NCBI RefSeq assembly: GCF_044704955.1
Contig: NC_091989.1
Location: 98,580,001 to 98,644,000 of the forward strand
DNA length: 64,000 bases
Reading direction: 5' to 3'
From: Pristiophorus japonicus
Lineage: Eukaryota
Below the pieces are notes generated by a model, which was not told where the DNA came from, ran no database searches, and saw only the letters and a list, made by a program, of their open reading frames with translations. Position 1 is the first letter of the stretch, and every line of letters starts with the position of its first letter. A program made the translations under genes and the position numbers. Positions 18,480 to 64,000 of this stretch are shown one piece after another.

Positions 18480-21400
18480 ATCGACTAGTCAAACAATAGA
18501 CTGACATAGTCATACTCACAGAATCATATCTTTCAGGCAAAGTCCCAGATTCCTCCATCCCAATTCCTGTTCCACCAGCAGGACAGACGCAACAAAGTTG
18601 CTGGCACAGTAGTACACAGTCGGGGGGCTGGGGGGGATTGGCCCTGGGAGTCCTCAACATTGACTCGGGATCCCATAATGTCTCTTGGCTTCAGGTCAAG
18701 CATGGGAAAGGAAACCTCCTGCTGATTACCAACTACCACCCTCCCTCAGCTGATGAATCAGTATGCCTCCATGTTGAACACCAGTTAGAAGAAGCACTGA
18801 GGGTAACAAGGGCACAGAATGTACTCTGGGTGGGGGACTTCAATGTTCAGCACAAAGAGTGGCTCGTTAGCACCACTACTGACCGAGCTGGCCGGTTCCT
18901 GAAGGTGATAGCTCCCAGACTGGGCTTGTGGCAGGTGGTGAGAGAACCAACCCGTGGGAAAAACCTACATGACCTCCTCTTCACGAATCTATCTGTCACA
19001 GATGCATCTGTCCATGACAGTATTGGCAGGAGATGCCATCGCACAGTCCTTGTGGAGACACAGTACCATCTTAAAAACATAGAAAATAGGTGCAGGAGTA
19101 GGCCATTCGGCCCTTCGAGCCTGCACCGCCATTCAATGAGTTCATGACTGAACATGCAACTTCAGTACCCCATTTCTGCTTTCTCACCATACCCCTTGAT
19201 CCCCCTAGTAGTAAGGATTACATCTAACTCCTTTTTGAATATATTTAGTGAATTGGCCTCGACAACTTCCCGTGGTAGATAATTCCACAGGTTCACCACT
19301 CTCAGGGTGAAGAAGTTTCTCCTCATCTTGGTCCTAAATGGCTTACCCCTTATCCTTAGACTGTGATCCTCTGGTTCTGGACTTCCCCAACATTGGGAAC
19401 ATTCTTCCTGCATCCAACCTGTCTAAACCCGTCAGAATTTTAAACGTTTCTATGAGATCCCCTCTCATTCTTCTGAACTCCAGTGAATACAAGCCCAGTT
19501 GATCCAGTCTTTCTTGATATGTCAGTCCCACCATCCCGGGAATCAGTCTGGTGAACCTTCGCTGCACTCCCTCAATAGCAAGAATGTCCTTCCTCAAGTT
19601 AGGAGACCAAAACTGTACACAATACTCCAGGTGTGGCCTCACCAAGGCCCTGTACAACTGTAGTTACACCTCCTTGCCCCTGTACTCAAATCCCCTCGCT
19701 ATGAAAGCCAACATGCCATTTGCTTTCTTAACCACCTGCTGTATCTGCATGCCAACCTTCAAAGACTGATGTGCCATGATACCCAGGTCTCGTTGCACCT
19801 CCCTTTTTCCTAATCTGTCACCATTCAGATAATAGTCTGTCTCTCTGTTTTTACCACCAAAGTGGATAACCTCACATTTATCCACATTATACTTCATCTG
19901 CCATGCATTTGCCCACTCACCTAACCTATCCAAGTCACTCTGCAGCCTCATAGCATCCTCCTCGCAGCTCATACTGCCACCAAACTTAGTGTCATCCGTA
20001 AATTTGGAGATATTACATTTAATCCCATCGTCTAAATCATTAATGTACAATATAAACAGCTGGGGCCCCAGCACAGAACCTTGCGGTACCCCACTAGTCA
20101 CTGCCTGCCATTCTGAAAAGTACCTATTTATTCCTACTCTTTGCTTCCTGTCTGCCAACCAGTTCTCAATCCACGTCAGCACACTACCCCCAATCCCATG
20201 TGCTTTAACTTTGCACATTAATCTCTTGTGTGGGACCTTGTCGAAAGCCTTCTGAAAGTCCAAATACACCACATCAACTGGTTCTCCCTTGTCCACTCTA
20301 CTGGAAACATCCTCAAAATATTCCAGAAGATTTGTCAAGCATGATTTCCCTTTCACAAATCCATGCTGATTTGGACCTATCATGTCACCTCTTTCCAAAT
20401 GCGCTGCTGTGACATCCTTAATAATTGATTCCAACATTTTACCCACTACCGATGTTAGGCTGACCGGTCTATAATTCCCTGTTTTCTCTCTCCCTCCTTT
20501 TTTAAAAAGTGGGGTTACATTGGCTACCCTCCACTCCATCGGAACTGATCCAGAGTCTATGGAATGTTGGAAAATGACTGTCAATGCATCCGCTATTTCC
20601 AAGGCCACCTCCTTAAGTACTCTGGGATGCAGTCCATCAGGCCTTGGGGATTTATCGGCCTTCAATCCCATCAATTTCCCCAACACAATTTCCTGACTAA
20701 TAAGGATTTCCCTCAGTTCCTCCTTCTTACTAGACCCTCTGACCCCTTTTATATCCGGAAGGTTGTTTGTGTCCTCCTTAGTGAATACCGAGCCAAAGTA
20801 CTTGTTCAATTTGTCTGCCGTTTCTTTGTTCCCCGTTATGACTTCCCCTGATTCTGACTGCAGGGGACCTACGTTTTTCTTTACTAACCTTTTTTTCTTT
20901 ACATATCTATAGAAGCTTTTGCAGTCCGTCTTAATGTTCCCTGCAAGCTTCCTCTCGTACTCTCTTTTCCCTGCACGAATCAAACCCTTTGTCCTCCTCT
21001 GCTGAGTTCTAAATTTCTCCCAGTCCCCGGGTTCGCTGCTATTTCTGGCCAATTTGTATGCCACTTCCTTGGCTTTAATACTATCCCTGGTTTCCCTTGA
21101 TAGCCACGGTTGAGCCACCTTCCCTTTTTTATTTTTACGCCAGACAATTTTTGTAGTTCATCCATACGGTCTCTAAATGTCTGCCATTGTCCATCCACTG
21201 TCAACCCCTTAAGTATCATTCGCCAATCTATCATAGCCAATTCACGCCTCATACCTTCAAAGTTACCCTTCTTTAAGTTCTGGACCATGGTCTCTGAATT
21301 AACTGTTTCATTCTCCACCATAATGCAGAATTCCACTATATTATGGTCACTCTTCCCCAAGGGGCCTCGCACAACGAGATTGCTAATTAATCCTCTCTCA

Positions 21401-22248
21401 TTACACAACACTCAGTTTAAGATGGCCTCCCCCCTAGTTGGTTCCTCGACATATTTGTCTAGAAAACCATCCCTTATGCACTTCAGGAAATCCTCCTCCA
21501 CCGTACTGCTTCCAGTTTGGTTAGCCCAATCTATATGCATATTAAAGTCACCCATGATAACTGCTGCACCCCTAATTTCCTGTTTGATGCCCTCCCCAAC
21601 ATCACTACTACTGTTTAGAGGTCTGTACACAACTCTCACTAACGTTTTTTGCGCTTTGGTGTTCTGCAGCTCTGCCCATATAGATTCCGCATCATCCAAG
21701 CTAATGTCCTTTCTAACTATTGCATTAATCTCCTCTTTAACCAGCAATGCTACCCCACCTCCTTTTCCTTTTATTCTAACATTCCTGAATGTTGAATACC
21801 CTTGGATGTTGAGTTCCCAGCCCTGATCATCCTGGAGCCACGTCTCTGTAATCCCAATCACATCGTATCTTTTAACATCTATTTGCACAGTTAATTCATC
21901 CATCTTATTACGGATACTCCTTGCATTAGGGTACAAAGCCATCAGGCTTGTTTTTTTTAACACCCTTTGTCCTTTTAGAATTATGATGTAGTGTGGCCCT
22001 TCACACTGATGACACCCTCCATCATGATGCAGGGCACTACCATTCATACTAAATGGGATGAATTCAGAATAGATCTAGCAGCTCAAAACTGGACATCCAT
22101 GAGGCACTGTGGGCAATCAGCAGCAGCAGGATTGTATTCCATCACAATCTGTAACCGCATGGCCCGGCACATCCCTCACTCTACCATTACCATCAAGCCA
22201 GGGGACAAACCCTGGATCAAGGAGGAGTGTAGAAGATCATACCAGCAG
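18480..22248 (+). mobile_element. CR1-group LINE endonuclease fragment, split by a younger CR1 (pieces 18480-19072 and ~21998-22248)
   Basis: APE motifs LITNYHPPS and WVGDFN. The sequence resumes colinearly after the insertion, with CTT at both junctions. Confidence 0.75.
19073..21997 (-). mobile_element. CR1 LINE, ORF2 nearly complete (APE + RT), with a few frameshifts and stops
   Basis: ORFs 21412-22047 (IGITETWL, MGDFN), 19664-21118 (GVPQGSVLGP, KFTDD) and 19343-19657. Tail TTTTCTATGTT. Confidence 0.95.
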
Positions 22249-40891: not shown

Positions 40892-43800
40892 TTGAAGGAT
40901 TGCTCACCTCATCCACCACCATCTGGGGAGTGCACCCCAAGAAACACCACCCATCGCTGTGAGGGGAGACCTGCCCCCGCAGCTTCCCTCTTTCCCACCC
41001 CCCACTCTCTTTCTCTCTCTCTCTGTCTCTCCCCTCTCTCTCTGAGAGCCCTTTCCTCCTAATTTGGAAAAAAACAATTAAGACAACTGAGCAGAGGGAG
41101 CAAGGCCCCTCCCCAATTGTCAACTAGGGGAGAGGTGTGCCTCATTGAGAGCACCTCTGCTCAGACACTTAAATGAGGCCAATTAAGAACATTAAGGCCT
41201 GTGACTTTAGGGTGGGTGTAGCCCTTAAAGGGACCCCGTGATGGCGACCCCATCCACGCCGGTGGCGGGGTCAGCAACGACATACGCGCAGGCGGCGTCC
41301 ACATCCACGGCGCCTCCTGCGCCTCCTGCTGCCCTGCCACCATTCAGACTTGTAACAAAAAAACACGGGGTCAAGAGCTGCACTCACCCCACAATGAGCA
41401 TCGAGGAGTGCGTGCGGGCAATGGCTGGGGTAGTCGGCCCCTCGGCCATTGTCGCAGCCTCCAAGATGTCTGGGAAGGCCATGTTCTTCCTGGGGTTGGA
41501 GCGGGCGGTGTACCTGACCCTTGAAAAGGGGCTCACGGTGGGCAGGACGTTCCTGCCGGTGGACCCTCTCGAGGCCACAGCGCAGAGGGTCATCCTTTCT
41601 AACGTCTCGCCCTTTGTTCCCGCTGAGCTCCTCCTCCCTCACCTACACCAACTGGGGGAGGTAAGGTCGGGGATTAACCCCATACTGCTCGGCCTCAGGG
41701 AGAACAGCCTGCGCCACGTCTTCTCCTTCGCCGCCAACTTTTTGTCCGGCTGGCGCAGGAGGAGACGACAGAGGGATCATTTAATGTGGTGCACGAGGGG
41801 ACTGCCTACCGCATCTTCTGAACGTTGGACGGCGTGCGGTGCCATGCCTGCAGAGAGGTGGGGCATGTTCGGAAAAACTGCCCCGCCTCCAGGGCCGCCA
41901 AACCATCGAAGGCGGCCAAGGCTGGCGCCGCCGCCACCCCTCCCCCTAGTTGCATCCGCATGCCGGGAGCTGTTGGTGTGCGGGCATCATCAGGGGCCTT
42001 TGTTTTCACGGCCTCTGGCGGGGGGTAGGGAGAGCGTCCGATCGGAAAGAAGGCGCGGAAGAAGGCGAAACATCTTGAGGCGGGTCCCCTCAGTGAGCCA
42101 GACAGTTTGATCACCGCGCTTAGCCCAACCCAGTCATCGGCGAGCACGGGGTGCCCTGAGCCTGTGCCCGAGCCCTTGACCAATACCTCAGCGGGGTTCG
42201 GGCGCGGGCAAGATAAGAAAAAGGGGGGAATGGAGCGGGAGGCCTCGGCAGACATGGAGGCCTCCCTGCCTCCGCGCCCCCCCAGGAACAAAAGGAGGCA
42301 CCGCTCCAATGAGGCGGAGGGGGAACAACATCCCTCCGCAGAGGAATCGGTGCCCGCCGCGTGTCCCGCGTCCCCCACCAGCGCCCCCAAACTGCGCCGT
42401 AGGCAGGAGGAATCTGTCCCCGGGGAGGGTGAGGCAGTCGAGGCTGGGGGATGGCGTGGAAGATCTGCCTGTCGTGGGGGGCGCAGAGCCAGCGGAGGAA
42501 TGCGTTGCTGCCAGGTTGAGCGTCCCGGGGACTGAGTCGGGCGGGGCTGAAAAGGCCGAACTTGAGCCCACCCAGCTATTAACCAACTTCCCCCGGGAGT
42601 CGCTCGACCCGGAAGAAACAGAAAATGTGAACAATTTTAACGATTCTGTGTACGCTGGGCCGGGGGTGGCGGCGGGGAGGGGGAAGAACAACAACCCTCG
42701 CCCCCTACTTTGGAGCTGGGGCACTTGGAGGACCTGGAGAATTACTTTGGCCAGGTCTCTCCATGTTCCCCGGTTCCTGGGGCGGAGGAGGAACCTCTTC
42801 CGCTGTCGCTTCCTGACCCAGCACCACTTTTAAAAGAGCCCAGTGGGGACTCCTCTGCCGACGATCCTGGGGATGGGATCGGGGCAGAGCCAGGGCCGGA
42901 TGGAGCGGCCGGGCCGTTTGCCGTACCTCGTGCGGTCGACGGGCCGGCTGCTGGCGGCGACCGCCCGGAGGGGGACGGGGACTCGGTGGGGGACTCGGGA
43001 GAAGATCTTGAGTCCATCGCCAGTGAGGCGGTGGAACTCCTCGTGCCCGCCGCTGAGCCCCCCTCATTCCTGTAAAGGAACTCCGGGACTTTTTGGCCCA
43101 GAGCCAGGGTCGCCGCAACCGAGCCCATCTGACCCGGGAAAAATGGTCCGAGCCGGGGCTGCTCATCGCGTCTGTCCGCGCCGCCGCTAAAACCATGGCC
43201 GCGGGCGGGCACTTATCAAAGGCGCAAGGCCTTGAGCTGCGCCGGCTCAAAAGGTTCCTCGCTGGGCTGCTGAAGGAGTGGAGGTCAACAAACGACTCCA
43301 CTCCCCCCCCCACAATAGGTTAGGTAGAGGTTGCACTATGCTTTTGCCATGAAGATAACCATAGCCAGCCTCAACATCAACGGCGGCAGAGAGATACGCC
43401 GTAGATTTAACAAATTTTCGCTCCTGCGGGAGGGGAAATATGCGGTGTGCTTCCTGCAAGAAACCCACACCGTTCCGGGAGACGAAGCCACGTGGCTCCT
43501 GGAATGGCAAGGAGAGGTCTGCATGAGCCACTTCTTGTGGGGTGGCCATCTTGCTGGCCCCGCATTTTCAACCGGAGATCTTGGGGGTCGAGGAGCCCGT
43601 GCCAGGCCGCTTGCTGCACGTCACGGTTCGCCTGGGGGACGTGCCGCTCCATCTCGTGAACCTATACGCCTCTCAGCCCGGCCCGCAGCAAGCGCGATTC
43701 TTCGAAGAAGTGTCCGCTCTTCTTGGCTCCGTCGACGTCGGCGACTGCATTGTCCTCGGGGGGGATTTTAACTGCACCCTCGAGGCGAGGGACCGCTCCG

Positions 43801-46800
43801 GTGCCCCGCAGAGCATTACGGCGATCAAGAAGTTGAGGGAGCTGGTCGGGTCCTTCGACTTGGTGGACGTCTGGCGAAATCTCCACCCCGACTCCAGCGC
43901 CTTTACTTGGGTGAGGCCTGGAGTAGGATGGTCCAGAATCGACCGCCTTTACGTGTCTCGGGCTTACGTTTCCTGCGTCCCGGCGGCCTCCATGCGGCCG
44001 GTGCCGTGTTCGGACCACCACCTGGTGTGGGCGGAGCTCGCTTCACTCCGTGCGATGACGGGGTCCGCGTACTGGCATTTTAACAACCAGCTGCTGGAGG
44101 ACGTGCGGTTCCAGGATTCGTTCCGTTGTTTCTGGGCTGACTGGAGAAGGAAGCAGGGGGGCTTCCCTTCCTTGAAGCTATGGTGGGACATGGGCAAGGC
44201 TCACGTCCGCGTCTTCTGTCACGAGTACGCGAGGGGGTCGACCAAAAGGCGGGCGCCCAGGGTCGGGCGCCTAGAAAAAGAGGTGCTCGACCTGGAGTCC
44301 CGTCTCCGTCAAGTCGTCGAGGACCCGGCCCTGCGGACGTGTACGAAGCGAAGAAGGCCGCGCTGAAGGACCTGCAGCTCGTCGGGTCCCGATGCGCGTT
44401 CGTGAGGTCACGGATCCGGTTCCTGCGGGATCTGGATCGCAGCTCCCCCTTCTTCTACTCGCTGGAAAAAAGACAGAGTGTCCGTAAGCAGCTCTTGACG
44501 CTGCTGGCCGACGACGGCTCTCGTCTCGGATCCGGAGGGCGTCAACAACAGGGCCCGTGAATATTACGGGGCTCTGTTCTCTCCGGATCCGTCCAGTGAG
44601 GAAGCGCGTAGAGTTTTGTGGGAGGACCTGCCGAAGCTCAGCCCGGAGGGCGCCGAAAATCTGGAAGCTCCGCTAAGCCTGGCGGAGCTGACCGGCGCCT
44701 TCGCCCGGCTCTCGAGGGGAAAAGCCCCAGGGCTGGACGGGCTGACCGTGGAGTTCCACACGGCGTTCTGGGACATCCTGGGGGGCGACTATGCGCGGGT
44801 CCTGGGGGAAAGTCTGGCGACCGGGGAGATGCCCCTCTCTTGGCGCAGGGCAGTCATCGTCCTGCTGCCTAAGAAGGGCGATCTCCGCCTCCTTAAAAAC
44901 TGGTGCCCGGTCTCCCTCCTCAGGATTACAAAATCTTCGCCAGGGCGATGTCTGCTCGCCTTGGCGCCGTGCTGGACCACATGATCCACCCCGACCAGTC
45001 CTACACGGTCCCGGGCCGGACAATCCACGATAACACCCCTCCGCGGAGGAGTTGGTGCCCACCGCGTGTCCCGCGTCCCCCACCAGCGCCCCCAAACTGC
45101 GCCGTAGGCAAGCGGAATCTGTCCCCGGGGAGGGTGGGGCAGTCGAGGCTGCCCAGCCTCTGCCTCCCGGGGATGGCATGGAAGATCTGCCTGTCATGGG
45201 GAGCGTGGGGCCAGCGGAGGAATGGGTTGCTGCCGGGTTGAGCGTCCTGGGGACTGAGGCAGGCGGGGCCGAAAAGGCCGAACCTGAGCCCGCCCAGCTA
45301 TAAACCAGGTCTCTCCATGCTCCCAGGTTCCTGGGGCGGAAGAGGAACCCCTTCCGCTGTCGCTTCCTGACCCAGCACCACTTTTAAAAGAGCCCAGTGG
45401 GGACTCCTCTGCCGACGATCCTGGGGGTGGGATCGGGGCAGAGCCAGGGTCGAATGGAGCGGCCGGGCCGTTTGCCGTACCTCGTGCGTTCGACGGGCCG
45501 GCTGCTGGCGGCGACCTCCCGGAGGGGGACAGGGACTCGGTGGAGGACACGGGAGAAGATCTCGAGTCCATCGCCAGTGAGGCGGTGGATCTCCTCGCGC
45601 CGGCCGCTGAGTCCCCCCTCATTCCTGTTCAGGAACTCCGGGACTTTTTGGTCCAGAGCCAGGCTCGCCGCAACCGAGCCCATCTGACCCTGGAAAAATG
45701 GTCCGAGCCGGTGCTGCTCATCGCGTCCGTCCATGCCGCTGCTAAAACCATGGCCGCGGGCGGTCCCTTCTCAAAGGCGCAAGGCCTTGTGCTGCGCCGG
45801 CTCAAAAGGTTCCTCGCTGTGCTGCTGAGGGAGTAGATGTCAACAAACAACTCCATTCCCTCCCCCACAATAGGTTAGGTAGAGGTTGCACTATGCTGTT
45901 GTCATGGAAGATAACCATAGCCAGCCTCAACATCAACGGCGGCAGAGAGGCACGCCGTAGATTTAACAAATTTTCGCTCCTGCGGGAGGGGAAATATGCG
46001 GTGTGCTTCCTGCAAGAAACCCACATCGTTCCGGGAGATGAAGCCACGTGGCTCCTGGAATGGCAAGGAGAGGTCCGCATGAGCCACCTCACCGCCACTT
46101 CTTGTGGGGTGGCCATCTTGCTGGCCCAGCATTTTCAGCCGGAGATCTTGGGGGTCGAGGAGCCCATGCCAGGCCACTTGCTGCACATCATGGTTCACCT
46201 GGGGGACGTGCCGCTCCATCTCGTGAACGTGTACGCCCCTCAGCCCGGCCCGCAGCAAACGCGCTTCTTCGAAGAAGTGTCCGCTCTTCTTGGCTCCGTC
46301 GACGTCGGCGACTGCATTGTCCTCGGGGGCGATTTTAACTGCACCCTCGAGGCAAGGGACCGCTCCAGTGCCCCGCAGAGCATGACGGCGATCAAGAAGT
46401 TGAGGGAGCTGGTCGGGTCCTTCGACTTGGTGGACGTCTGCCGAAATCTCCACCCCGACTCCAGCGCCTTTACTTGGGTGAGGCCTGGAGTAGGATGGTC
46501 CAGAATCGACCGCCTTTACGTGTCTCGGGCATACGTTTCCTGCGTCCCGTTCGGACCACCACCTTGTGTGGGCGAAGCTCGCTTCGTTTCGCGCGTGGAC
46601 GGGGTCCGCGTACTGGCATTTTAACAACCAGCTGCTGGAGGACGAGCGGTTCCAGGACTCGTTCCGTCGTTTCTGGGCCGACTGGAGAAGGAAGCAGGGG
46701 GGCTTCCCCTCCTTGAGGCTATGGTGGGACGTGGGCAAGGCTCACATCCGCGTCTTCTGTCAAGAGTACGTGAGGGGGTCGACCAAGAGGCGGGCGGCCA

Positions 46801-49800
46801 GGGTCGAGTGCCTAGAAAAAGAGGTGCTCGACCTGGCGTCCCGTCTCGGTCAAGTCGTCGAGGACCCGGCCCTGCGGATGGTGTACAAAGCGAAGAAGGC
46901 CCCGCTGAAGGACTTGCAGTTCGTCGGGTCCCGAGGCGCGTTCGTGAGGTCGCGGATCCGGTTCCTGCAGGATCTGGACCGCGGCTCCCCCTTCTTCGAC
47001 TCACTGGAAAAAAGACAGAGTGTCCGTAAGCAGCTCTTGACGCTGCTGGCCGATGACGGCTCTCTCGTCTCGGATCCGGAGGGCGTCAACAACAGGGCCC
47101 GTGAATATTACGGGGCTCTGTTCTCTCCGGAGCCATCCAGCGAGGAAGCGCATAGAGTTTTGTGGGAGGACCTGCCGAAGGTCAGCCCGGAGGGCGCCGA
47201 AAATCTGGAAGCGCCGCTCAGCCTGGCGGAGCTGACCGGCGCCCTCGACCGGTTCTCGAGGGGAAAAGCCCCGGGGCTGGACGGGCTGACCATGGAGTTC
47301 CACAGGGCGTTCTGGGACGTCCTAGGCTGCGGCTACGCGCGAGTCCTGGGGGAAAGTCTGGCGAGCGGGGAGATGCCCCTCTCTTGGCGCAGGGCAGTCA
47401 TAGTCCTGCTGCCTAAGAAGGGCGATCTCCGCCTCCTTAAAAACTGGTGCCCGGTCTCCCTCCTCAGCACGGATTACAAAATCTTCGCCAGGGCGATGTC
47501 TGCTCGCCTTGGCGCCGTGCTGGACCACATGATCCACCCCGACCAGTCCTACACAGTCCCGGGCCGCACAATCCACGATAACATCCATCTGGTCCGGGAG
47601 CTCATCCATCATTCCCAGGAGGCTGCTCTGTCGGTCGCCTTCCTATCTCTCGACCAAGAGAACGTGTTCGACAGGGTGGATCATGACTATCTGTTCGGGA
47701 CTCTGCGCGCTCTCGGGTTCGGGACGCATTTCGTCGCCCGGATCCGACTTTTGTACGCCGCCGCGGAGTGTCTGATTAAGGTTAACGGGTCCTTGACGGC
47801 GCCCCTTCGCTTTGGGAGAGGGGTGCGCCAGGGATGCCCCATGTCCAGCCAGTTATATGCCATCTGCGTGGAGCCTTTCCTGCGCCTCCTGTGGATGAGG
47901 TTGACGGGACTGGCTCTGCAAGGGCCGGGCGTGGAGGTCGTCCTCTCGGCTTACGCCAATGACATGCTCCTAGCGGTAGCGGATCCCGCTGACCTGTGGA
48001 GGATGCGTGAGTGCCAGGAGATTTACTCGGCCGCATCCTCCACCAGGATCAACTGGGAGAAATGTTCCGGACTCCTGGTGGGTCAGTGGCAGGTGGACTC
48101 CCTGCCGGAGGAGCTCAGGCCTTTTGCCTGGAGCACGACCCATCTCCTCTACCTGGGAGTCTACCTTAGACCCGACAAGGAAGCCTGGCCGGCGAACTGG
48201 CAAGAGCTGGAGGCCAAGGTCGCCGCTCGCCTAGGGCGCTGGACAGGACTGCTCCGAGTGCAAGTCATAAACCAGCTGGTGGCCGCCATGCTGTGGTACC
48301 GGCTGGTCACTTTGACCCCTCCCCCTGCGTTTGTCAACAAGATACAGAAGAAGCTGGTGGCCTTCTTCTGGAACAACAGGAAGCACTGGGTCTCTGCCAC
48401 GGTCTTGAGTCTCCCGCTTGGGGAGGGCGGTCAGACGTTGGTGTGCGTCAGCGCCCAGCTCGCGACTTTCTGTCTTCAGACCCTGCAGAAATACCTTTAC
48501 GTCGAGCCCCCTCCTAGGTGGCGTGCTCTGGCGATGTATTTCTTCTGCCAGCAGCACGGCCTCAACTATGACACGCAGCTCCTGTTTGTGAGCTTGGGGG
48601 GCGTCAGGACCGCCGTCCAGGAGCTGCCTGTCTTTTACAAGGAACTCACCAGGGTCTGGAACAAAGTCTCCACAAAGCGCAGTTCTCCACCGGCTGGAGT
48701 GGCGGCTGTTCTGCAGGAGCCGCTGCTCGGGAATCCGTAGCTCCACGACCGAGGTTTTAGGTGGCGGTCGGACGAGAGGGCTGTGGCTGGTGAGGTGACC
48801 AGAGTCAGGGACCTGCTCGATGGCGGAGGAGCGGGCTGGATGGCGCCAGACACGCTGGCCGACTTCCGCCACGCGGCCGATGCCATCGAGTCGCTAAAAA
48901 CAGTTCTGGGCCCTGACTCCGTTAGGTCCATCGAGGAGGCTCAAGCACGTGGGGAGATCTCGTCCGAACTGACCCCCGTGCGGACGGAATTCCTCATCGG
49001 CGCCAAACCCCGGAACCTCCCTCGGGAGCCGGCGCCTCACAACTTGAGCCGCCTCGAGGAAATTCCCTCCGTGCCTTTCAGTTCCGCGCGGAGGGGTTTC
49101 CTGTACGGGCTGCTCCTGCACACTCTCAACTTTGCCATCCTCGCCGGCAGTCCGGACACGCCATGGCGTATCATATTGCCGTCCGGAGGAGGCGGGGGTC
49201 CCCGATGGAGGGCAATCTACGCGGGAGTCCTCCCACTATTTATCGGGGACATGGCCTGGAGGGTGGTGCACGGAGCAGTACCGTGCAACAAATTTTTAAG
49301 CCGGTTCACGGGCTCCCAGGCCGCCTGCAATTTCTGCGGTCTGGAAGAGTCCGTGTTCCATGTTTTTATTGAATGCACGAGGTTGCAGCCCCTGTTTTAT
49401 TATTTAAAGGGGCTGCTCCTGAAATTATGGCTGCACTTCAGTCCCACACACCTGATGTTTGCGGAGGGGAGCGGGTAGGTCCGAGGGCCTCCTCGTAGGA
49501 CTGCTCCTGGGCACGGCCAAGGGTGCCATCAGCCGATCCAGGCAGCGGGTAGTCGAGGGTGTCATTCAGCCTGACTGCCTGCCTCTCTTCCACGCGTACA
49601 TCCGCGCCAGGGTGTCCTTGGAGATGGAGCACGCGGTGTCCACCAGTACGCTCGCGGCCTTCTGCAAGAGGTGGGCGCCGGAGGGACTGGAGTGCATCGT
49701 TACCCCCGGCAACCAAATTTTAATTTGATTTTATTTATTTTACAGTTTGATTTGTTTTAATTGCCGGTTTTAGTGTCCCCCTCCCCTTTTATAGGGGGCA

Positions 49801-55439: not shown

Positions 55440-58400
55440 AATGATCGTAGCTCTTAGATCACAACTAATGTCGTCTCACAGGACACCGAACGTGTCGTTA
55501 AATCGACCTCCTGGTGACAGTAGCAAACCAGGCAAATCGAATGGTCCTCTCCAAAATAAACTTCATGTAGACCCAGCCATCCGAATATGCCAACTTAACT
55601 TTGAAGGCATCTCTCGTTCAAAATGCGAATAACTCGAAAGGTTACTGAAACACAGCATCGATATTCTGGTGCTTCAAGAAACACATATCGAACACATCCA
55701 CCACTTCGACACAAGAGGCCGTATCACAGGTTTTGACCTAATTGCATTCAATAACCATCCCAAATATGGCCTAGTATGCTGTGTTAAACAAGGCATTGAA
55801 GGCTGCACTGAACTTGAGCGTATCAGTATTGCCAGAGTTTTCACTACAGCGATACGCGTAGGAGAGCTAACAATCTTCAATGTCGACAAACACCACTTGT
55901 GCAGTGCCTGACCCACTGCTCCCTCCTGGTCAACATCCATCCATCTCAAAGACTTTAATAGTCACCATAAAATGTGGGACTAATGCAGATGCCAACTATA
56001 ATGGAGAAGCAATTGTACAGTGGGCTTCACTGGAGAATAAATTCCCCCATTTGGATGCCAAAGATCGAGATACGTTTCATGTGTCAAGGTGGCAGAGAGA
56101 ATATAACCCAGACCTATGTTTCCTCTCTAAAGACAGCAAAGGAAACCCAATCATTGCCTCCAGAAACATTCTCAATGGCCCTGAAACCCCGGTTTCTTCT
56201 TCCCGCGAGCGTTCGACTAAAAATAGGAGAAAAGATGCGCACTTACATTTGGTCGAACGCTCACCAAAGATCCCGGTCTTGAGGCCTCCTTTTCTTGTGC
56301 ATCGGAGCGCATTCACATTGGGACATCAGTATTTTCACGTTCATAGGAATCGGAGTTTCCTAAGTCCAAAACTCCTCTTACTATGAATGAGAAACACCCC
56401 CAAACACCCAAACACTACATAAAACATTAAAAAAACACCTCACATAAATACATTATAGAAATTAAATTTGATAGAAATATTTTTGAAAAAAAATTGCCGA
56501 TTTAAAAAAAAATGGTTTAATATAAAATTATCTGAGTGGGCAGGATTTTTAACATATGTAGTTTTAAATTTTATTTTTATATGTTTTTGATATGTTTTTA
56601 AATTCTTACGACAATAAAAGTAGGCGATGTGCCTGCTTTTATCAGGTGCATGTGTTTTAAGGACATTTGCTGGGCAAGAGATGGGCAAATAGCCCAATCT
56701 CTGCCGTGGGAATGTCCTCGCTCCAGAGATGCGGCCATCTGTCAAACCAGAAACTTGACAGATCGGAAAAGCCGGTTTTCAGCGCATGCGCATTGTGCAC
56801 CAAGAACCGGTTTTTCCGATGCCTTCCTGGGTCCAGACACACTCCGTACAGACCCGGGGAGCTCTGAATTTCAAGGCCAATAACTTCACAAGGATTCAAC
56901 ACAGGTGCTCAATCATCAACGTTGGCATCGAAATTGCTGTCACTACATCAACACCGGAACCACGATGGAACTTCAAAAAAGCAGACTGGGAAACCTTCCA
57001 AAGATCAGTTGACACCAATATCAGGTGGATTCCACCAACCACCAATGCCTTGAACAGATTTATAGGAATTATTAAAGCTGGCGCAAATCGCAGTATGCCT
57101 CGGGGGTTTAGAAAGATATATTGGACGGAAGAAAGCGAGGCTCTCTACCAGGAGTATTCGCTGAACAAGAATCCAGCCACAGCCACCACAATGCTGGAGT
57201 CCTTGAACTCGACAAGATGTGAAAGGTGGAGGAACCTTATGGAGAAGTCTAACTTCACTCACACCAGCAGGAAAGTATGGACCCTGCTCCGTCAACCTGG
57301 TGGGGCAGTCCCCGCCTATAAACTCAGGACGACCATCAGAGCAGATGCCATTGCATCCCACTTGATGCAAACATGAAAGGTTCCGGTGGACAAAGTATTT
57401 TGACGGCAGATGAAGCGGAAGCTTTCGACAAACTTGATGGCGGCAACAAGATCGTCAACTGTGTCTGATCCACTCACCTTGGACGGACTAAACGCAGCCC
57501 ATCGACGATAAAATCTGGAAAAGCTGCTGGTCCAGATGGTGTTTACCCAGAATTGTTAAAAGCACTGGGACCCAAAGCAAAGAGATGGTTGATCTCCTTC
57601 TCTGAGGTACTGGCAACTGGTAAAGTTCCATCTATTTGGAGGGAGACTAAAATAATTGCCCACCTGAAACAGCACAACAATGCTTGTGAAGCCTCCAGCT
57701 AACACCCGATCTCCTTACTTTGCACTAGTTATAAAGTGCTGGAGAGGCTACTACTCCACACACTAGCCCCCATCATCGTGCCAACCATTCCGAAGGAGCA
57801 AGTGGGTTTCCGGAGTGGCCGTAACTGCTGTGACCAAGTGGTAGCTTTAACAACGCACATCAAAGCAAGCGTCCAACGCCAGCTCATGACTGCCGTAGCA
57901 CTCGAGGAGCTGTCAGTGACGTATGACACAGTGTGGAAGCATGGACTGCTTTTCAAGCTCTGCACCATTTTATCCTCCAGAACAACGATCAATCTCCTCA
58001 ACTCCATGTTTAGCAACCAACGCTTCCGTGTGTACTCTGGCACCCAGAAGAGCAGATATAGGACATTGAACAACGGACTCCCACAGGGCTCTGTCCTGGC
58101 ACCCATGTTATTCAACGTTTACATCAGTGATCTGCCCGAAACAGAGTCCCGCAAGTTCGTGTACGCTGATGACATTGGTTTGGCCACGCACAACACAAAT
58201 CTGTCCATCACTGAAGAGAACCCAACCAGTGATTTACAGAGGATGGAGGCCTACTTCCGCCGATGGCGACTCCGACCAAACCCGCAAAAGTCTGTCACCT
58301 CGACATTCCACCCCAACACCCATCAAGCAAACCAAGCTTTGAAAGTCTCCTTTTGCAACGCAGAGGTAAACCATGCCAAAAAACTCTCCTATTTAGGATT

Positions 58401-58580
58401 CAAGCTTAATCACTGCCTTTCATATAAACATCACCAGAACCTTGGGAAGAATCTAAAGAGTAGTATCAACTTGATCCAGAAATACACCGGATCCACATGG
58501 GGAGCAGACACACAAAGCCTCCGTAAGCCAGCACTCGCCCTGGTATACTCTACAGAGGAGTATTGCTCTCCGGCATGTGT
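55440..58580 (+). mobile_element. Vingi/Ingi-group LINE (APE + RT), decayed and 3'-truncated
   Basis: IRICQLNFEG, VLQETH and YNPDLCF (APE). CCDQVVALTTHI, GLPQGSVLAP, YADD and YFRRWRLRPNP (RT), typical of Vingi. Confidence 0.78.
56177..56878. mobile_element. Harbinger-type MITE with a 3-bp TSD
   Basis: TIRs GGCCCTGAAA / TTTCAAGGCC, TSD AAT at 56174-56176 and 56879-56881. Removal restores the LINE frame ILNNFTRIQHR. Confidence 0.85.
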
Positions 58581-59603
58581 TCTTCGACGGATCTGTGTGC
58601 ACCTTTGGAAGTGGTTTAGTGAGTTGCAGTGAATGGTGAGACATAATGGTAGCAAGTCACAAACTTCTACAAAGAAGAAAGCCCACTACCACTTCCTTGG
58701 GGGTAACTACATTTGGACAATAGATGCCGGCCTTGCCAGATGAATTTTAAAAAGCAGCCTCTACTTCGCACTCAGTACAGCACCAAGTTTCTGGGTGCCA
58801 ATTATGTTAAAGTTGTGGAGCTTGTACCCACCTGCTCCGAGGTCAATGAGTGACCCTGAAAACTTAGTGCTGGGGGTCAGCAGCTTATCTTTTATTTTTC
58901 AATTTTGAAGAAGGGCTTATGACCAAAACATAATCCGAATTGTTCTTTCTTTCCACTTGTTTGAAATCTTCGATGAAATAACAAGGAGAGTTGATGCAGG
59001 TGGTGCTCCTGATGTTGTGTAAATGGAATTTCAAAAGACATTTGATGAAGTGTCACATCTTGGGCTCAAGTTTCGGGGCGTGCCTAGAACGGCGCAGCCC
59101 TGACACCCACACCTGTTTTCCACGCTCAAAAGCGCGTCAAAAACTCACGGAGGAATTCTTGGCCTCGCAGCAGCTTCCTTGCAGCTCAGTGCGGCGTGCA
59201 GAGATCAGCGGGGGCAGGGCCAAAGCGTCGCGCCGATTTTGAGACTGCAAGGCGGCGGGGCTAGCTCAGAGCAGAAGATGTCCTGCCGGCAGCACTGTGT
59301 GTGCGCGCTGGAGCATGCGTGCACACGCAGTGTGATACAAACATTGGCACTCGCCCATTTTAAAAGGTGCCTGAGGAAAAGTGCTGTTTTGTTTTGTGAA
59401 GCTGTGGAAAGGCTTGTGAATTAACTTTGGTGATTTTTTTTGTGCCTGAAGGAGTGCTTTTAGCAGTACTGTTGAAGAAATCACCTACTGAAATCAGTGA
59501 GTGCTGCTTTTTGCTTCTAAACTTCCAGAACAAGTGTTGCATAGGTGCATGCAAAATAAGGAGTGTGTGTTTTGAAAAATCAGAGTGTCAATTCAATACA
59601 GCA

Positions 59604-60257
59604 ATGGAACAACGTCCAGCAAGAACAAAGAATTTCTTGCATGAGGAAGTGGAGATATTAGTTAACGCCATTGAGCAGAGATGGCAGGAGCTGAATACCA
59701 GCAACAGAGGTCACATAATAGTGCCACCCAAAGAAATGAAGAAACGCTGGAACCAAGTTGCAGAAGATTACTGCGCAGTGGTGCATACCAGGAGATCTGG
59801 AAGCCAGTGTAAAAAGAAATGGCACGACCTCCGTCAAGTTGTTAGTGTAAGTAATATTTTCATTTTTTAATGGAATCGTAATTGTAAATGTGACTATCTG
59901 TATGTCCCACCCTGCAGAAAGATGCACTCTGTAAAAAGTTATATTTTAATCTTTGCAGAAGAAATTGGCCCAAAACAAAAGGGAAAGAACTCGAACAGGG
60001 GGAGGCCCGCCAAATCTGCACCCACTGACACCCTTGGAACAGAGGGTAGCTGCTATGATGAGTCGTACATGAAGAAAAGCAATCAGTACAGCACAAGCTG
60101 GGCCCGCACGCGAGGGAGAGGGTAAGTCCTGAAAATGCATCGTGGCCCTTCAAATCAACCTGCTGCCTGGTCTGCTATGTGTGAGAGTACTCATGCCACC
60201 CATCCTGCCTCCTCCTCTGCTGCTACACATTTGACTGTTCTGATATATTTCGCAGAA

Positions 60258-60294
<37 letters not shown>

Positions 60295-61076
60295 CCAACC
60301 CTGAAGATCCTGAAGATCCAGAACAAGAACCAGAAGAACCAGATGCGGATGATCCAGACTGGCTGCAGGCGGCGATGACTGAAATGTCTTCAGGGGAGAC
60401 CTTCCAAATTAATATTTATGAGCCCACATTAACGGGCATCAGAGTTTCAACCCCTTGCATCGGTTCTGGTTCTACCTTCCATGATTTTGATTCTGATGTT
60501 GCAAGTCCCAATGGTGCTGGTGATATAATGGAGCAGTTTACAGCCACTGACCCACCATCCCAGCCCACGGCTCGCACTGGAGTGGTGCCGGATGCAAGAC
60601 CCAGGGCCGCACCATCCCAGCCCGCGGCTCCCACTCTAGTGTTGCCGTTTGGAACACCGAGGGTCCCACCATCCCAGCCCGTGGCTCCCACTCTCGTGCT
60701 GCTGTTTGGAACACCGAGGGTCCCACCATCCCAGCCCGTGGCTCCCAGTGCAGTGGTACCGCAAGGCAGATCCAGGCAGAGGAGAAGGAGATTGGGGACA
60801 CGCTCTCCTGCGATGCAGTGTGCAACAGATGCGGCTCAGGTTGTGGCATTGGGTGTGGAGACCAATGACCTTACCCGATCACTCGTGGGCAGCGTCAGTG
60901 CAGTGGGTGAAGAGGTGACGGTACTTTCAGGAGAAATAGCAGTAATGACATGGGAAATGAGGGAGGGAATGTCCGAGGGAGTGCAATCGACAGCACAGGC
61001 CGTCAAGGAGGGCCTGGGTGAGGTAGCTGCTGCAATAAGGGCACACAGCCCGGCCAATCAAATGACACCCCCATGA
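59604..61076 (+). pseudogene. Harbinger Myb/SANT-like gene, exons 59604-59846, 59959-60121 and 60256-61076; premature TGA at 60070
   Basis: NFLHEEVEIL...WNQVA...QCKKKWHDL and RTGGGP motifs. Canonical GT-AG introns in phase 0 and 1, (GAT)n poly-Asp, and 60-bp coding repeats. Confidence 0.85.
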
Positions 61077-62507
61077 AGAAATGAACATTCACCGAGATGT
61101 GGATGAGAGATGGTTGCAGCCTTTCTTTGCTGCTTTTGTTCTTGTTCTTGACGTAACTGTAGTAACGTTTTTCAAATTGAAATTGTTTTGTAAGTTTTGT
61201 AACTTTACAACTTATAAGTGATCTTAGGGTGTTTAAGTGATCTTATAGTGTAAATACTCTCACATAACTTATTTAATTTTGCACCTAAAAAGTGATCTTG
61301 AAGTTTAAGTGATCTTAAGAGTGTAAGATTTTTCACATTGAAATTGTTTTGTAACTTTTGTAACTTTACAAGTTTATAAGTGATCTTAAAGTTTTTAAGT
61401 GATCTTAAAGAGTTATATTAAAAAGTAAACTTTGATACAACAAATATTTTATTACACTAACGTTAACTTTTCAATAAAATATTATTTCATTAAAACTGCA
61501 TCATGTCTCATTAACACAACACAACATAGGAACAACTCCAAAAAATAAACATGTCCATGCTCAACAGTTGTCGCAGAGCCCTCAGGCATCAGTAATTGAA
61601 GCGTTCAAGGATGAACTGCTGGCACAGGGCTCGAGCAATCGTTAAAGGAGCACGATGGACTGCCCTCCTCCGACCTCGGGCTCCGGCATCAGGCACTTGC
61701 ATGCTTTGCTGATCGTCGTCATCACCCTCATCCTGCTCTTCCAAATTACTATCATCAGGCACTGCCCCCTCATGTGGGTATTCTGGTTCCACTACCAGCT
61801 CCTGCTGCCTCATGATGACTAAGTTATGCAGCATGCAGCACACAACAGTGAAGTGACCGACAATCTGAGGAGAGTATTGCAAGTGGCCTCCGGAATGTCC
61901 AGGCATTGGAAACGCTGTTTCAAGATGCCAATGGGCCTCTCTATGATGCTGCACGTCGCAATGTGTGCCATGTTGTGTTGATGGTCAGCTTCCGTCAGTG
62001 TTACGCGTAGGGGCGTCATGAGCCAGGTGGCCAGGCCGTACCCTTTGTCTCCCAGTAGCCTGCTCTGCCCTTCTGGCTGCTGCTCAAACATGTCAGATAT
62101 AATGCTGTCGCATAGGATGAACGCATCATGGGTGCTACCAGGGTGTCTCGCATCGACTGACATGATGCGCTGCTTGTCGGCACACACGAGCTGCACATTA
62201 ATGTAGTGGAAACTTTTTCTATTTCTGTACTGCTCGGAATCCTCCACACGTGCTCGCAAGGCAATGTGGGTTCAATCAATGCAGCCCTGTACCTTTGAGA
62301 AGCCAGTAATCCTGAAGAAGCCCACAGCCCTGTCATGCATTGCTTGTGCGGTCATTGGGAACTTGATGAAGTAATTCCTCCATGCATACAGTGCAGCCGT
62401 GACCTGGTAAACGCATGTATTGCACGTTGAGAGATGGCGCATACATCTCCAGTTGTAGCTTGAAACGATCCCGAGGCATAGAAGGCAAGTGCAGCTGTTA
62501 CCTTCAC

Positions 62508-62767
62508 AGAGAGTGGAGAGCACGAGTTAGGACTGTCGCAGGGGAGAGGGTGGTGAGCGCCAGTTCGAACTGTCACAGGAGAGAGGGTGGAGAGCACCGG
62601 TTCCAACTGTCATAGGATGGGAGAGTGGAGAGCACCAGTTCAAACTGTCACAGGAGAGAGAGTGGAGAGCACCAGTTCAAACTGTCACAGGAGAGAGAGT
62701 GGAGAGCATCAGTTTAAACTGTTGCGGGGGGGAGGGTGGGGAGCACCAGTTCAAACTGTCGCAGGAG
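62508..62767 (+). repeat. ~38-bp minisatellite (GAGAGTGGAGAGCACCAGTTCAAACTGTCACAGGA), about 7 copies
   Basis: Direct reading; forms the 5' part of the insertion. Confidence 0.85.
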
Positions 62768-62919
62768 CATCCAGTCATGCCCCGGTAACTGCCCCCAAGG
62801 GAAGTGGAGTGTGGGAAATTGCACTCCGCTTCCATTGAGGGGTGGTAAGGCCAATTCTGCGGCGGGAGCAGGACTTCCACGCTGGGGACTAACATTCCCT
62901 GCCCCAGAAGGTTACCGCC

Positions 62920-63638
62920 TCCAAGATGGGAGCTTGTGCGGGGTGGCAGAGGGAAGTTGAGGGGAGATGGGGGCGGGGGGTGGAGGGGAGAGTGGTGGAG
63001 GTGGGAGGCGGAGAAATCCAGGGCGGGGGACAGGAGGGGCCACATTGCAGCGGAGGTATGAGGGGGCGAAGTGTGTTGGAGGGACTGGCCTGGGGACTCT
63101 GTGTCTCGGTGCGGGGAGTGTTCAGAGTGGGGTGGACGGGTTGACTGCGCAGATGGCGGTTGGTGGATGTGGTGTGGTTGGCGTCGCGGGGGCATGTCTC
63201 CGGGGTGGCCGGGGCTGGGGACTCGACATCCGGGGCTGTTCTGCATTTGGGAAGGATTCTGATGGGACGGGACGGGTTGGGTGCGGGGGGAGTGTTCCCG
63301 GTGTTGGGTGGGTCCGGAGCCGGGGGGGGTGGTGCACGCTCTTGGGATGGGGGGTGGGCTGTTTGGGGCTGGGATTGGGAGAGACTTCTTCACTCGGGGA
63401 GTTGTTGGCCTGTGGGGTTCCCTGCCGTGGAGAGTTGTTGATGCCAGTTCATTGGATGTGCTCGGGAGGGAATTGGATGTGGTCCTTGCGGCTGGGGGGG
63501 TCGGAGGGTGTGGAGGGGGCGTCGGGGGGAGGTGCTGTGGTGGGTGATCATCCATGATCTTGTTGAATGGTGGTGCAGGCTCGAAGGACCGAATGACCTA
63601 CTCCTGCACCTATTTTCTATGTTTCTATGTTTCTATGT
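62920..63638 (+). mobile_element. Internally deleted CR1 copy with dense A>G hypermutation and an intact (TTCTATGT)n tail
   Basis: 63060-63258 aligns by eye to the CR1 ORF2 start (reverse complement of ~21780-21970). 63256-63638 aligns to the CR1 3' end (reverse complement of ~19073-19445). Most differences are A>G. Confidence 0.85.
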
Positions 63639-64000
63639 TTCAACAGACAAGGCAGTCAGCATTCTGATTCTGGGCTGCAAATCTGCACTCAGCATATCAC
63701 GGATCTCAACAACAACTTCTCTGTGGAAACGCAGCCTTTTGACACAAGCAGCCTCGCTCATGTCCAGGTACGAACGCCTGGCTCGATATTGCCGACGTGG
63801 GTAAGGTCTCCTGCCCATCAGCCTATGGGCTATGGCGTTCCTGGTGTGGTGTGCTCCAATCAATTCTCTCTTATCTAGTGAATTGATGGAGAACCATTGC
63901 ATAATCCGTGGTGTTGATAATGCAGCACCCAGACTTGAATTACAAATGTAACTTTTAAACTTGCTGGCTGGCTCGCTGGTTGGCTGGCTGGCTGGCTGGT

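What the first reader, a model, noticed from the sequence alone, without database searches (positions are those of the whole stretch)
62920..63638. CR1 retrocopy with dense sense-strand A>G changes: likely genomic fossil of an ADAR hyper-edited RNA
Seen: this G-rich stretch is a CR1 LINE in which many A's read as G. For example GGCTGGGAACTCAACATCCAAGG (reverse complement of the CR1 near 21800) becomes GGCTGGGGACTCGACATCCGGGG at 63213-63235, and GTGAACCTGTGGAATT becomes GTTGGCCTGTGGGGTT at 63404-63419. A's after G often survive (GAGAG, GAT), while A's after T or A are mostly converted. The last ~75 nt (3' hairpin region and TTCTATGT tail) are essentially unconverted. Established: ADAR A-to-I editing reads as A>G on the RNA strand and disfavours a 5' G, APOBEC editing of retroelement cDNA gives G>A instead, and CR1 RT recognises the 3' tail. 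Inference: a dsRNA-embedded CR1 transcript was hyper-edited, kept a usable tail, and was retrotransposed into the germline. That would make RNA editing a heritable, TE-inactivating mutagen in this lineage.
Basis: partly seen in the sequence, partly recalled or inferred. Interest (0 to 1): 0.85.

Follow-up and report, generated by a model that had tools for sequence, protein, structure and literature searches.

The report
RNA-edited retroposon family seeding giant satellites
This G-rich stretch is one of an estimated two thousand copies of a jumping element whose ancestor had two thirds of its A letters changed to G, likely by the RNA-editing enzyme ADAR before the RNA was copied into inherited DNA, and three sister copies sit at the ends of repeat arrays that appear to exceed 100,000 bases.

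Summary
The A>G hypermutation is real. Against the unedited parent CR1, 134 of 207 A's in this copy read G; no other change exceeds 11. Editing follows ADAR's 5' order (T 29/30, A 51/66, C 26/39, G 27/62), and the 3' tail is spared.

But this is not a lone, inactivated fossil. It is one copy of a non-autonomous family (885 exact motif hits; about 2,000 copies estimated; 3% from consensus). The edits are in the family consensus, so they predate the spread. The element is a 37/38-bp tandem array, a 160-bp hairpin segment and two edited CR1 pieces joined across a 2.36-kb deletion.

A probe outside the family found 13 further, independently hyper-edited CR1 copies on the sense strand and 1 on the antisense strand, against 26,871 unedited matches. 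Three of four sampled giant arrays of the same repeat (about 120-230 kb) end in a family copy.

ADAR is inferred from the signature; the duplex partner was not found. The scan already noted this family at other places in this genome and similar fossils in other genomes. Nine searches of open literature found no report of it.

The parts
62508..62767 (+). Seven units of a 37/38-bp tandem repeat, the 5' part of the element; variable length among copies. In this copy 13 of 18 differences from the unit consensus are A>G.
62768..62924 (+). About 160-bp non-CR1 segment with a long hairpin (about 62788-62846); no source outside the family was found
   Evidence: fold z=-3.38, 2 of 200 shuffles as stable
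62925..63257 (+). First hyper-edited CR1 piece (upstream spacer and start of ORF2; the endonuclease label is recalled). Family consensus: 83 of 124 A's read G.
63256..63257 (+). Junction with 2-nt microhomology across a deletion of about 2.36 kb of the parent CR1; shared by the family
63256..63544 (+). Second hyper-edited CR1 piece (3' end of the parent). Family consensus: 59 of 83 A's read G.
63545..63638 (+). Essentially unedited CR1 3' tail: predicted stem-loop (63572-63610) and 8-bp terminal repeats
   Evidence: 1 of 16 A's changed in the consensus against 142 of 204 in the body, p=6e-7
61822..62271 (-). Host gene: DDE transposase fragment (PF13359; the Harbinger label is recalled). Its frame resumes on the other side of the insertion, which implies no target-site duplication.
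19072..21990 (-).

Best explanation
This is one copy of a non-autonomous CR1-derived retroposon family whose founder carried about 140 A>G changes, likely made by ADAR on a double-stranded CR1 RNA and then likely reverse-transcribed into the germ line by CR1 proteins that would recognise the unedited 3' tail. Shown: the spectrum, context, spared tail, deletion, composite structure, dispersal and 13 other edited copies. Inferred steps: (1) a CR1 RNA paired with antisense CR1 RNA, abundant in a genome with tens of thousands of copies; (2) ADAR deaminated about 69% of A's, the tail escaping through its own fold or through selection for a usable tail; (3) the 2.36-kb deletion arose by a template jump at a 2-nt microhomology, order relative to editing unknown; (4) the retrocopy came to lie behind a 37/38-bp array and a hairpin segment that supply transcription; (5) it was copied in trans about 2,000 times with 5' truncation; (6) at a few loci the array later expanded as DNA to more than 100 kb.
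For: Family consensus versus parent: A>G 142 of 207, next G>A 6, T>C 1; 5' context T 29/30, A 53/66, C 30/42, G 29/64, p=5e-7, the U>A>C>G order of PMC3113232 (passages). Control: 20 parent copies show A>G at 4.3-5.3% in every context. Family hits on both strands, 443 and 442, with unrelated flanks; contigs of four public runs from three studies carry the G-rich family. 13 of 14 sense-probe hits are hyper-edited (pooled A>G 1207, next 179; T .49, A .39, C .30, G .19; tail 17/197 against 354/1180); none carries the family's private changes. Antisense probe: 2 hits, 1 edited. Deaminase-domain genes are present. Stringent 3'-end recognition: PMC3747384 (passages).
Against: No duplex partner or unedited precursor with the junction was found (first 100 of 689 junction hits listed, none fully unedited). 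No 3' G enrichment (p=0.78), although human hyper-editing shows one (PMC4365171). 69% conversion is higher than in any of the 13 other copies over their aligned length (at most 51%), so more than one round is possible. Tail sparing is not absolute: L177 8/16, L188 4/16. In cell assays ADAR1 restricted L1 without detectable editing (PMC5224506). No RNA evidence was obtained.
Confidence: 0.85

Rival explanations
1. Same enzyme, several rounds: the lineage was edited, inserted, transcribed and edited again before the main burst, and editing still touches some insertions.
For: Conversion is very high, including 45% of G-preceded A's. The array of this copy has 9 A>G at 49 near-invariant A's against 96 of 9,397 over 60 copies; several of these are shared with its duplicate L002.
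Against: Among 89 copies none has more than 9 of 143 edited sites as A, and A at edited sites (2.2% non-CpG) is close to A at ancestral G (1.8%). That sample leans to edited copies. Array units are not independent and their A>G context is flat between C and G.
Confidence: 0.25
2. A polymerase error burst during insertion (for example dG opposite T under nucleotide-pool imbalance in second-strand synthesis) made the A>G tracts.
For: It would also be one-stranded and limited to retrocopies (own reasoning; no test).
Against: It gives no reason for the exact ADAR neighbour order in the family and in 13 other events, for the spared tail, or for a T>C tract whose complement also favours A and T over C and G (L191: 15/19, 9/12, 7/16, 8/15).
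Confidence: 0.06
3. A deaminase acted on plus-strand DNA adenines during integration rather than on RNA.
For: Sequence alone cannot tell RNA from plus-strand DNA.
Against: No such vertebrate enzyme is known to me (recalled). ADAR acting on the cDNA of an RNA:DNA hybrid would give sense T>C, which is 1 of 116 in the family.
Confidence: 0.04
4. Slow drift, GC-biased conversion, reversed direction (APOBEC G>A in the parent) or an assembly artefact.
For: G runs vary in length among copies.
Against: Strand-symmetric processes predict T>C equal to A>G (1 versus 142). Four diverged CR1 copies in the window share the A state (A>G 65-74, G>A 10-12). Copies lie on both strands and in independent runs.
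Confidence: 0.02

Closest known systems
ADAR-type A-to-G hypermutation of avian retroviruses (RAV-1, Felder 1994; avian leukosis virus, Hajjar and Linial 1995; seen only as cited in PMC8586724, passages)
   Same: A>G clusters made on RNA and recorded through reverse transcription.
   Different: Those are rare viral variants. Here the substrate is a LINE, the result is germ-line DNA, it recurs, and one product founded a family.
APOBEC DNA editing of retroelements in vertebrate genomes (PMC4866542 passages and section 6; PMC3880073 passages; PMC2873906 passages)
   Same: Strand-biased deaminase clusters fixed in genomic retroelement copies.
   Different: G>A on cDNA, not A>G. PMC4866542 screened LTR elements and called other cluster types negligible; its text never mentions ADAR.
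Hyper-edited repeat RNA (PMC4365171 passages; neighbour rules PMC3113232 passages)
   Same: Dense A>G with 5' G depletion in repeat RNA.
   Different: Seen in RNA only; here it is in DNA. The 3' G enrichment is absent.
SINEs and other non-autonomous elements that borrow a CR1/L2 3' tail (PMC3747384 passages); SVA-type composites with a tandem repeat (recalled, not checked)
   Same: Non-coding element ending in an intact LINE tail.
   Different: No tRNA or 5S head was looked for or seen; the head is a tandem array that also forms very large blocks, and the body is hypermutated LINE sequence.

Membership tests
ADAR hyper-editing product | One-directional A>G excess on the RNA strand | tested here: met
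   142 A>G versus at most 6 of any other change
ADAR hyper-editing product | 5' neighbour order U>A>C>G | tested here: met
   97%, 80%, 71%, 45% in the family; 49, 39, 30, 19% in 13 other copies
ADAR hyper-editing product | 3' G enrichment | tested here: not met
   p=0.78 in the family; 35% versus 29-31% in the 13 copies. PMC3113232 treats the 3' effect as weak.
ADAR hyper-editing product | Double-stranded RNA substrate | tested here: inconclusive
   No edited inverted arm beside 8 probe loci examined; partner not identified
ADAR hyper-editing product | Dependence on ADAR; inosine in RNA | not testable with these tools
   PF02137 genes exist at six loci but were not typed; no RNA run on record
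Non-autonomous CR1-tailed retroposon | Intact 3' tail shared with an abundant LINE | tested here: met
   75 of 76 tail bases identical to the parent consensus
Non-autonomous CR1-tailed retroposon | Dispersed independent insertions, fixed 3' end, variable 5' end | tested here: met
Non-autonomous CR1-tailed retroposon | Mobilisation in trans by CR1 proteins | not testable with these tools
   inferred from the tail
Autonomous CR1 subfamily | Complete ORF2 | tested here: not met
   about 2.36 kb deleted
APOBEC-edited retroelement | Sense-strand G>A clusters | tested here: not met
   G>A 6 of 196
Classical SINE | tRNA, 5S or 7SL-derived head with a Pol III promoter | not tested
   the 5' part is a tandem array and a hairpin; no RNA-family search was run

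The most novel reading that the evidence does not exclude
ADAR is a recurrent germ-line mutagen of LINEs in this lineage (at least 0.05% of copies), and it can create new mobile elements: by rewriting two thirds of the A's it hid one RNA from CR1-directed small RNAs and duplex sensing while leaving the tail usable, which let the element spread and plant a minisatellite that grew into arrays of over 100 kb on several chromosomes.
Probability: 0.25. Interest if true: 0.92.

Novelty: new variant of a known kind. Interest (0 to 1): 0.78.

Why it matters
It would be a direct genomic record that RNA edits are written back into heritable DNA through LINE retrotransposition, the RNA-level counterpart of APOBEC fossils. 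It gives a datable record of germ-line ADAR activity and specificity, a way to map which part of the CR1 3' end must stay unedited, and a test of whether editing blocks or helps retroelements. Published cell work found no editing of L1 RNA (PMC5224506). It also links an edited retroposon to the birth of very large satellite arrays.

Tried and rejected
A>G-collapsed BLAST against the window was too noisy. No source for the 160-bp hairpin segment: all 30 fetched hits were family copies, and a search of all fetched flanks found nothing else. No less-edited intermediate among 89 copies; the one junction hit with two A's was otherwise edited (7 of 143 sites). L182 (sense probe) and L192 (antisense probe) are not hyper-edited and were left out of pooled counts; L189 was misaligned and corrected. 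The probe forces three T-preceded sites per copy; removing those 39 leaves 280/613 (0.46), still the highest. Edited sites overlap the family's more than context shuffles in 4 of 12 copies (p 0.01-0.04); read as finer site preference, since none shares the family's private changes. Inverted CR1 pieces beside L183, L184, L189 and L180 are not edited as hairpin arms. No RNA holder listed. Whether other species carry the family is open: one run of a second coded organism holds it, no others were laid. The tail fold is not more stable than shuffles (z=-1.07). The C17 array and a 3.3-kb array on C1 do not end in the element. Kim 1996 was not held. No supplements were opened; those of PMC4866542, and Carmi 2011 (not read), may hold A>G counts that bear on novelty.

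Full report
Observation. Four other CR1 copies in the window align to its 3' part with 65-74 A>G against 10-12 G>A. To get a fair reference I counted an unedited parent motif (15,115 exact hits), fetched 20 of the first 22 listed and built a consensus. Against it this copy has 134 of 207 A's as G, no other change above 11, with edited fractions T 29/30, A 51/66, C 26/39, G 27/62 by 5' neighbour, and 1 of 18 in the tail.

It is a family. A DNA search returned 40 scored matches (of 4,202 candidates) at 92-94% over the whole length, with unrelated flanks except one. An edited 27-mer occurs 885 times, 443 forward and 442 reverse; the junction 689 times; a motif in the 5' segment 504 times. With copies 3.1% from their consensus (89 copies), exact matches catch under half, so I estimate about 2,000 copies. 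The consensus of the first 30 hits differs from the parent by 142 A>G of 207 A's, G>A 6, C>T 5, T>C 1; context T 29/30, A 53/66, C 30/42, G 29/64 (p=5e-7); no 3' bias (p=0.78). Parent copies as control show A>G at 4.3-5.3% in all contexts. The edits are older than the spread: no copy has more than 9 of 143 edited sites as A, and the rate matches back-mutation at ancestral G's. That sample leans to edited copies; the junction probe, which allowed A or G at three sites, showed no fully unedited form in the 100 of 689 hits listed.

Not an artefact. Contigs of four public runs (three studies, two coded organisms) cover the stretch; where they differ from this copy they mostly show the family base, and one contig of the second organism crosses the junction (63062-63325, 11 differences). 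This is family-level evidence, and the largest run may be the assembly's own sample.

Anatomy. 62508-62767: seven 37/38-bp units. 62768-62924: a segment with a strong hairpin (z=-3.38), found only in the family. 62925-63257 and 63256-63544: two edited CR1 pieces joined by a 2-nt microhomology across about 2.36 kb. 63545-63638: unedited tail with a predicted stem-loop. The copy interrupts a DDE transposase frame inside a block of at least 10 kb duplicated 4.3 Mb away at about 92% identity.

Editing recurs. A probe in the part the family lacks, demanding G at three T-preceded A's, gave 14 hits; the mirror probe for the other strand gave 2; the unedited form occurs 26,871 times. Thirteen of the 14 are hyper-edited: pooled A>G 1207, next G>A 179; context T .49, A .39, C .30, G .19; tail 17/197 against 354/1180 just upstream. 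They have different tracts and lack the family's private changes. One of the two mirror hits is a tail-less 270-bp piece with T>C at 39 of 66 T's. So at least 0.05% of copies are edited, mostly on the strand that CR1 copies.

The array. The unit occurs 83,765 times exactly. Five of six long-array copies fetched showed arrays of about 1-7 kb with different 5' ends (the sixth was fetched on the wrong side; one search confirmed the start of the longest). A search pointed to four very large blocks. Sampled stretches (not read continuously) put them at about 210-229 kb (C13), 124-143 kb (C19), 157 kb (C10) and 162 kb (C17). Three of the four end exactly in an edited family copy, each with its own 3' flank; the C17 block does not. 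Blocks of this size are too long for a retrocopy (own knowledge), so expansion after insertion is the likely order. In the window copy the array carries 13 A>G among 18 differences (9 of 49 near-invariant A's against 96 of 9,397), a tentative sign of a second, lighter round.

Mechanism. The spectrum and the U>A>C>G order match ADAR (PMC3113232, passages); deaminase-domain genes are present (not typed). The spared tail fits stringent 3'-end recognition (PMC3747384, passages). The duplex partner, the order of deletion and editing, the promoter and the number of rounds are not shown. The missing 3' G preference and the lack of L1 editing in cell assays (PMC5224506, passages) count mildly against.

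What is known. A>G hypermutation is reported for avian retroviruses (as cited in PMC8586724; one title in a reference list). Genome screens describe APOBEC G>A fossils and call other clusters negligible in LTR elements (PMC4866542; PMC3880073; PMC2873906). Nine searches (listings only, open-access library) showed no report of ADAR-edited LINE copies fixed in a germ line or founding a family. The scan's own notes already describe this family at four other places and similar fossils in other genomes; I had reached the family reading before seeing them, and the lines shown do not mention the arrays. The host is probably a cartilaginous fish (recalled resemblance, untested).

Verdict. Observation confirmed; interpretation partly supported; ADAR origin 0.85; new variant of a known kind; interest 0.78.

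Noticed in passing
G000 C13 about 155.67-155.89 Mb, C19 53.52-53.65 Mb, C10 132.88-133.04 Mb, C17 77.30-77.46 Mb (L200-L255): Very large arrays of the element's 37/38-bp repeat; three end in an edited family copy, the C17 one does not.
   Followed up: partly
L191:1454-1724: Tail-less CR1 piece with T>C at 39 of 66 T's, an antisense-strand edited fragment carried in by something else.
   Followed up: partly
window 56028-64000 and L194: Block of at least 10 kb duplicated 4.3 Mb away on the same contig at about 92% identity, including this insertion and the interrupted DDE transposase.
   Followed up: partly
window 60126-61076 +: 316-codon open frame, acidic and proline-rich with internal repeats, no Pfam match; lies beside the transposase on the opposite strand and may be its partner gene.
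   Followed up: partly
window 42751-45041 and 45305-47589: Direct duplication of about 2.3 kb at 92.6% identity.
   Followed up: no
L016/L017 (G000 C22, 37.12 and 37.13 Mb): Two family copies with the same sequence and flanks 7.5 kb apart: a tandem duplication or an assembly repeat.
   Followed up: no
L193:2048-5336: A 3.3-kb array of the same repeat with no edited element behind it.
   Followed up: partly
L037: Family copy with a further internal deletion of about 400 bp that keeps the tail.
   Followed up: no
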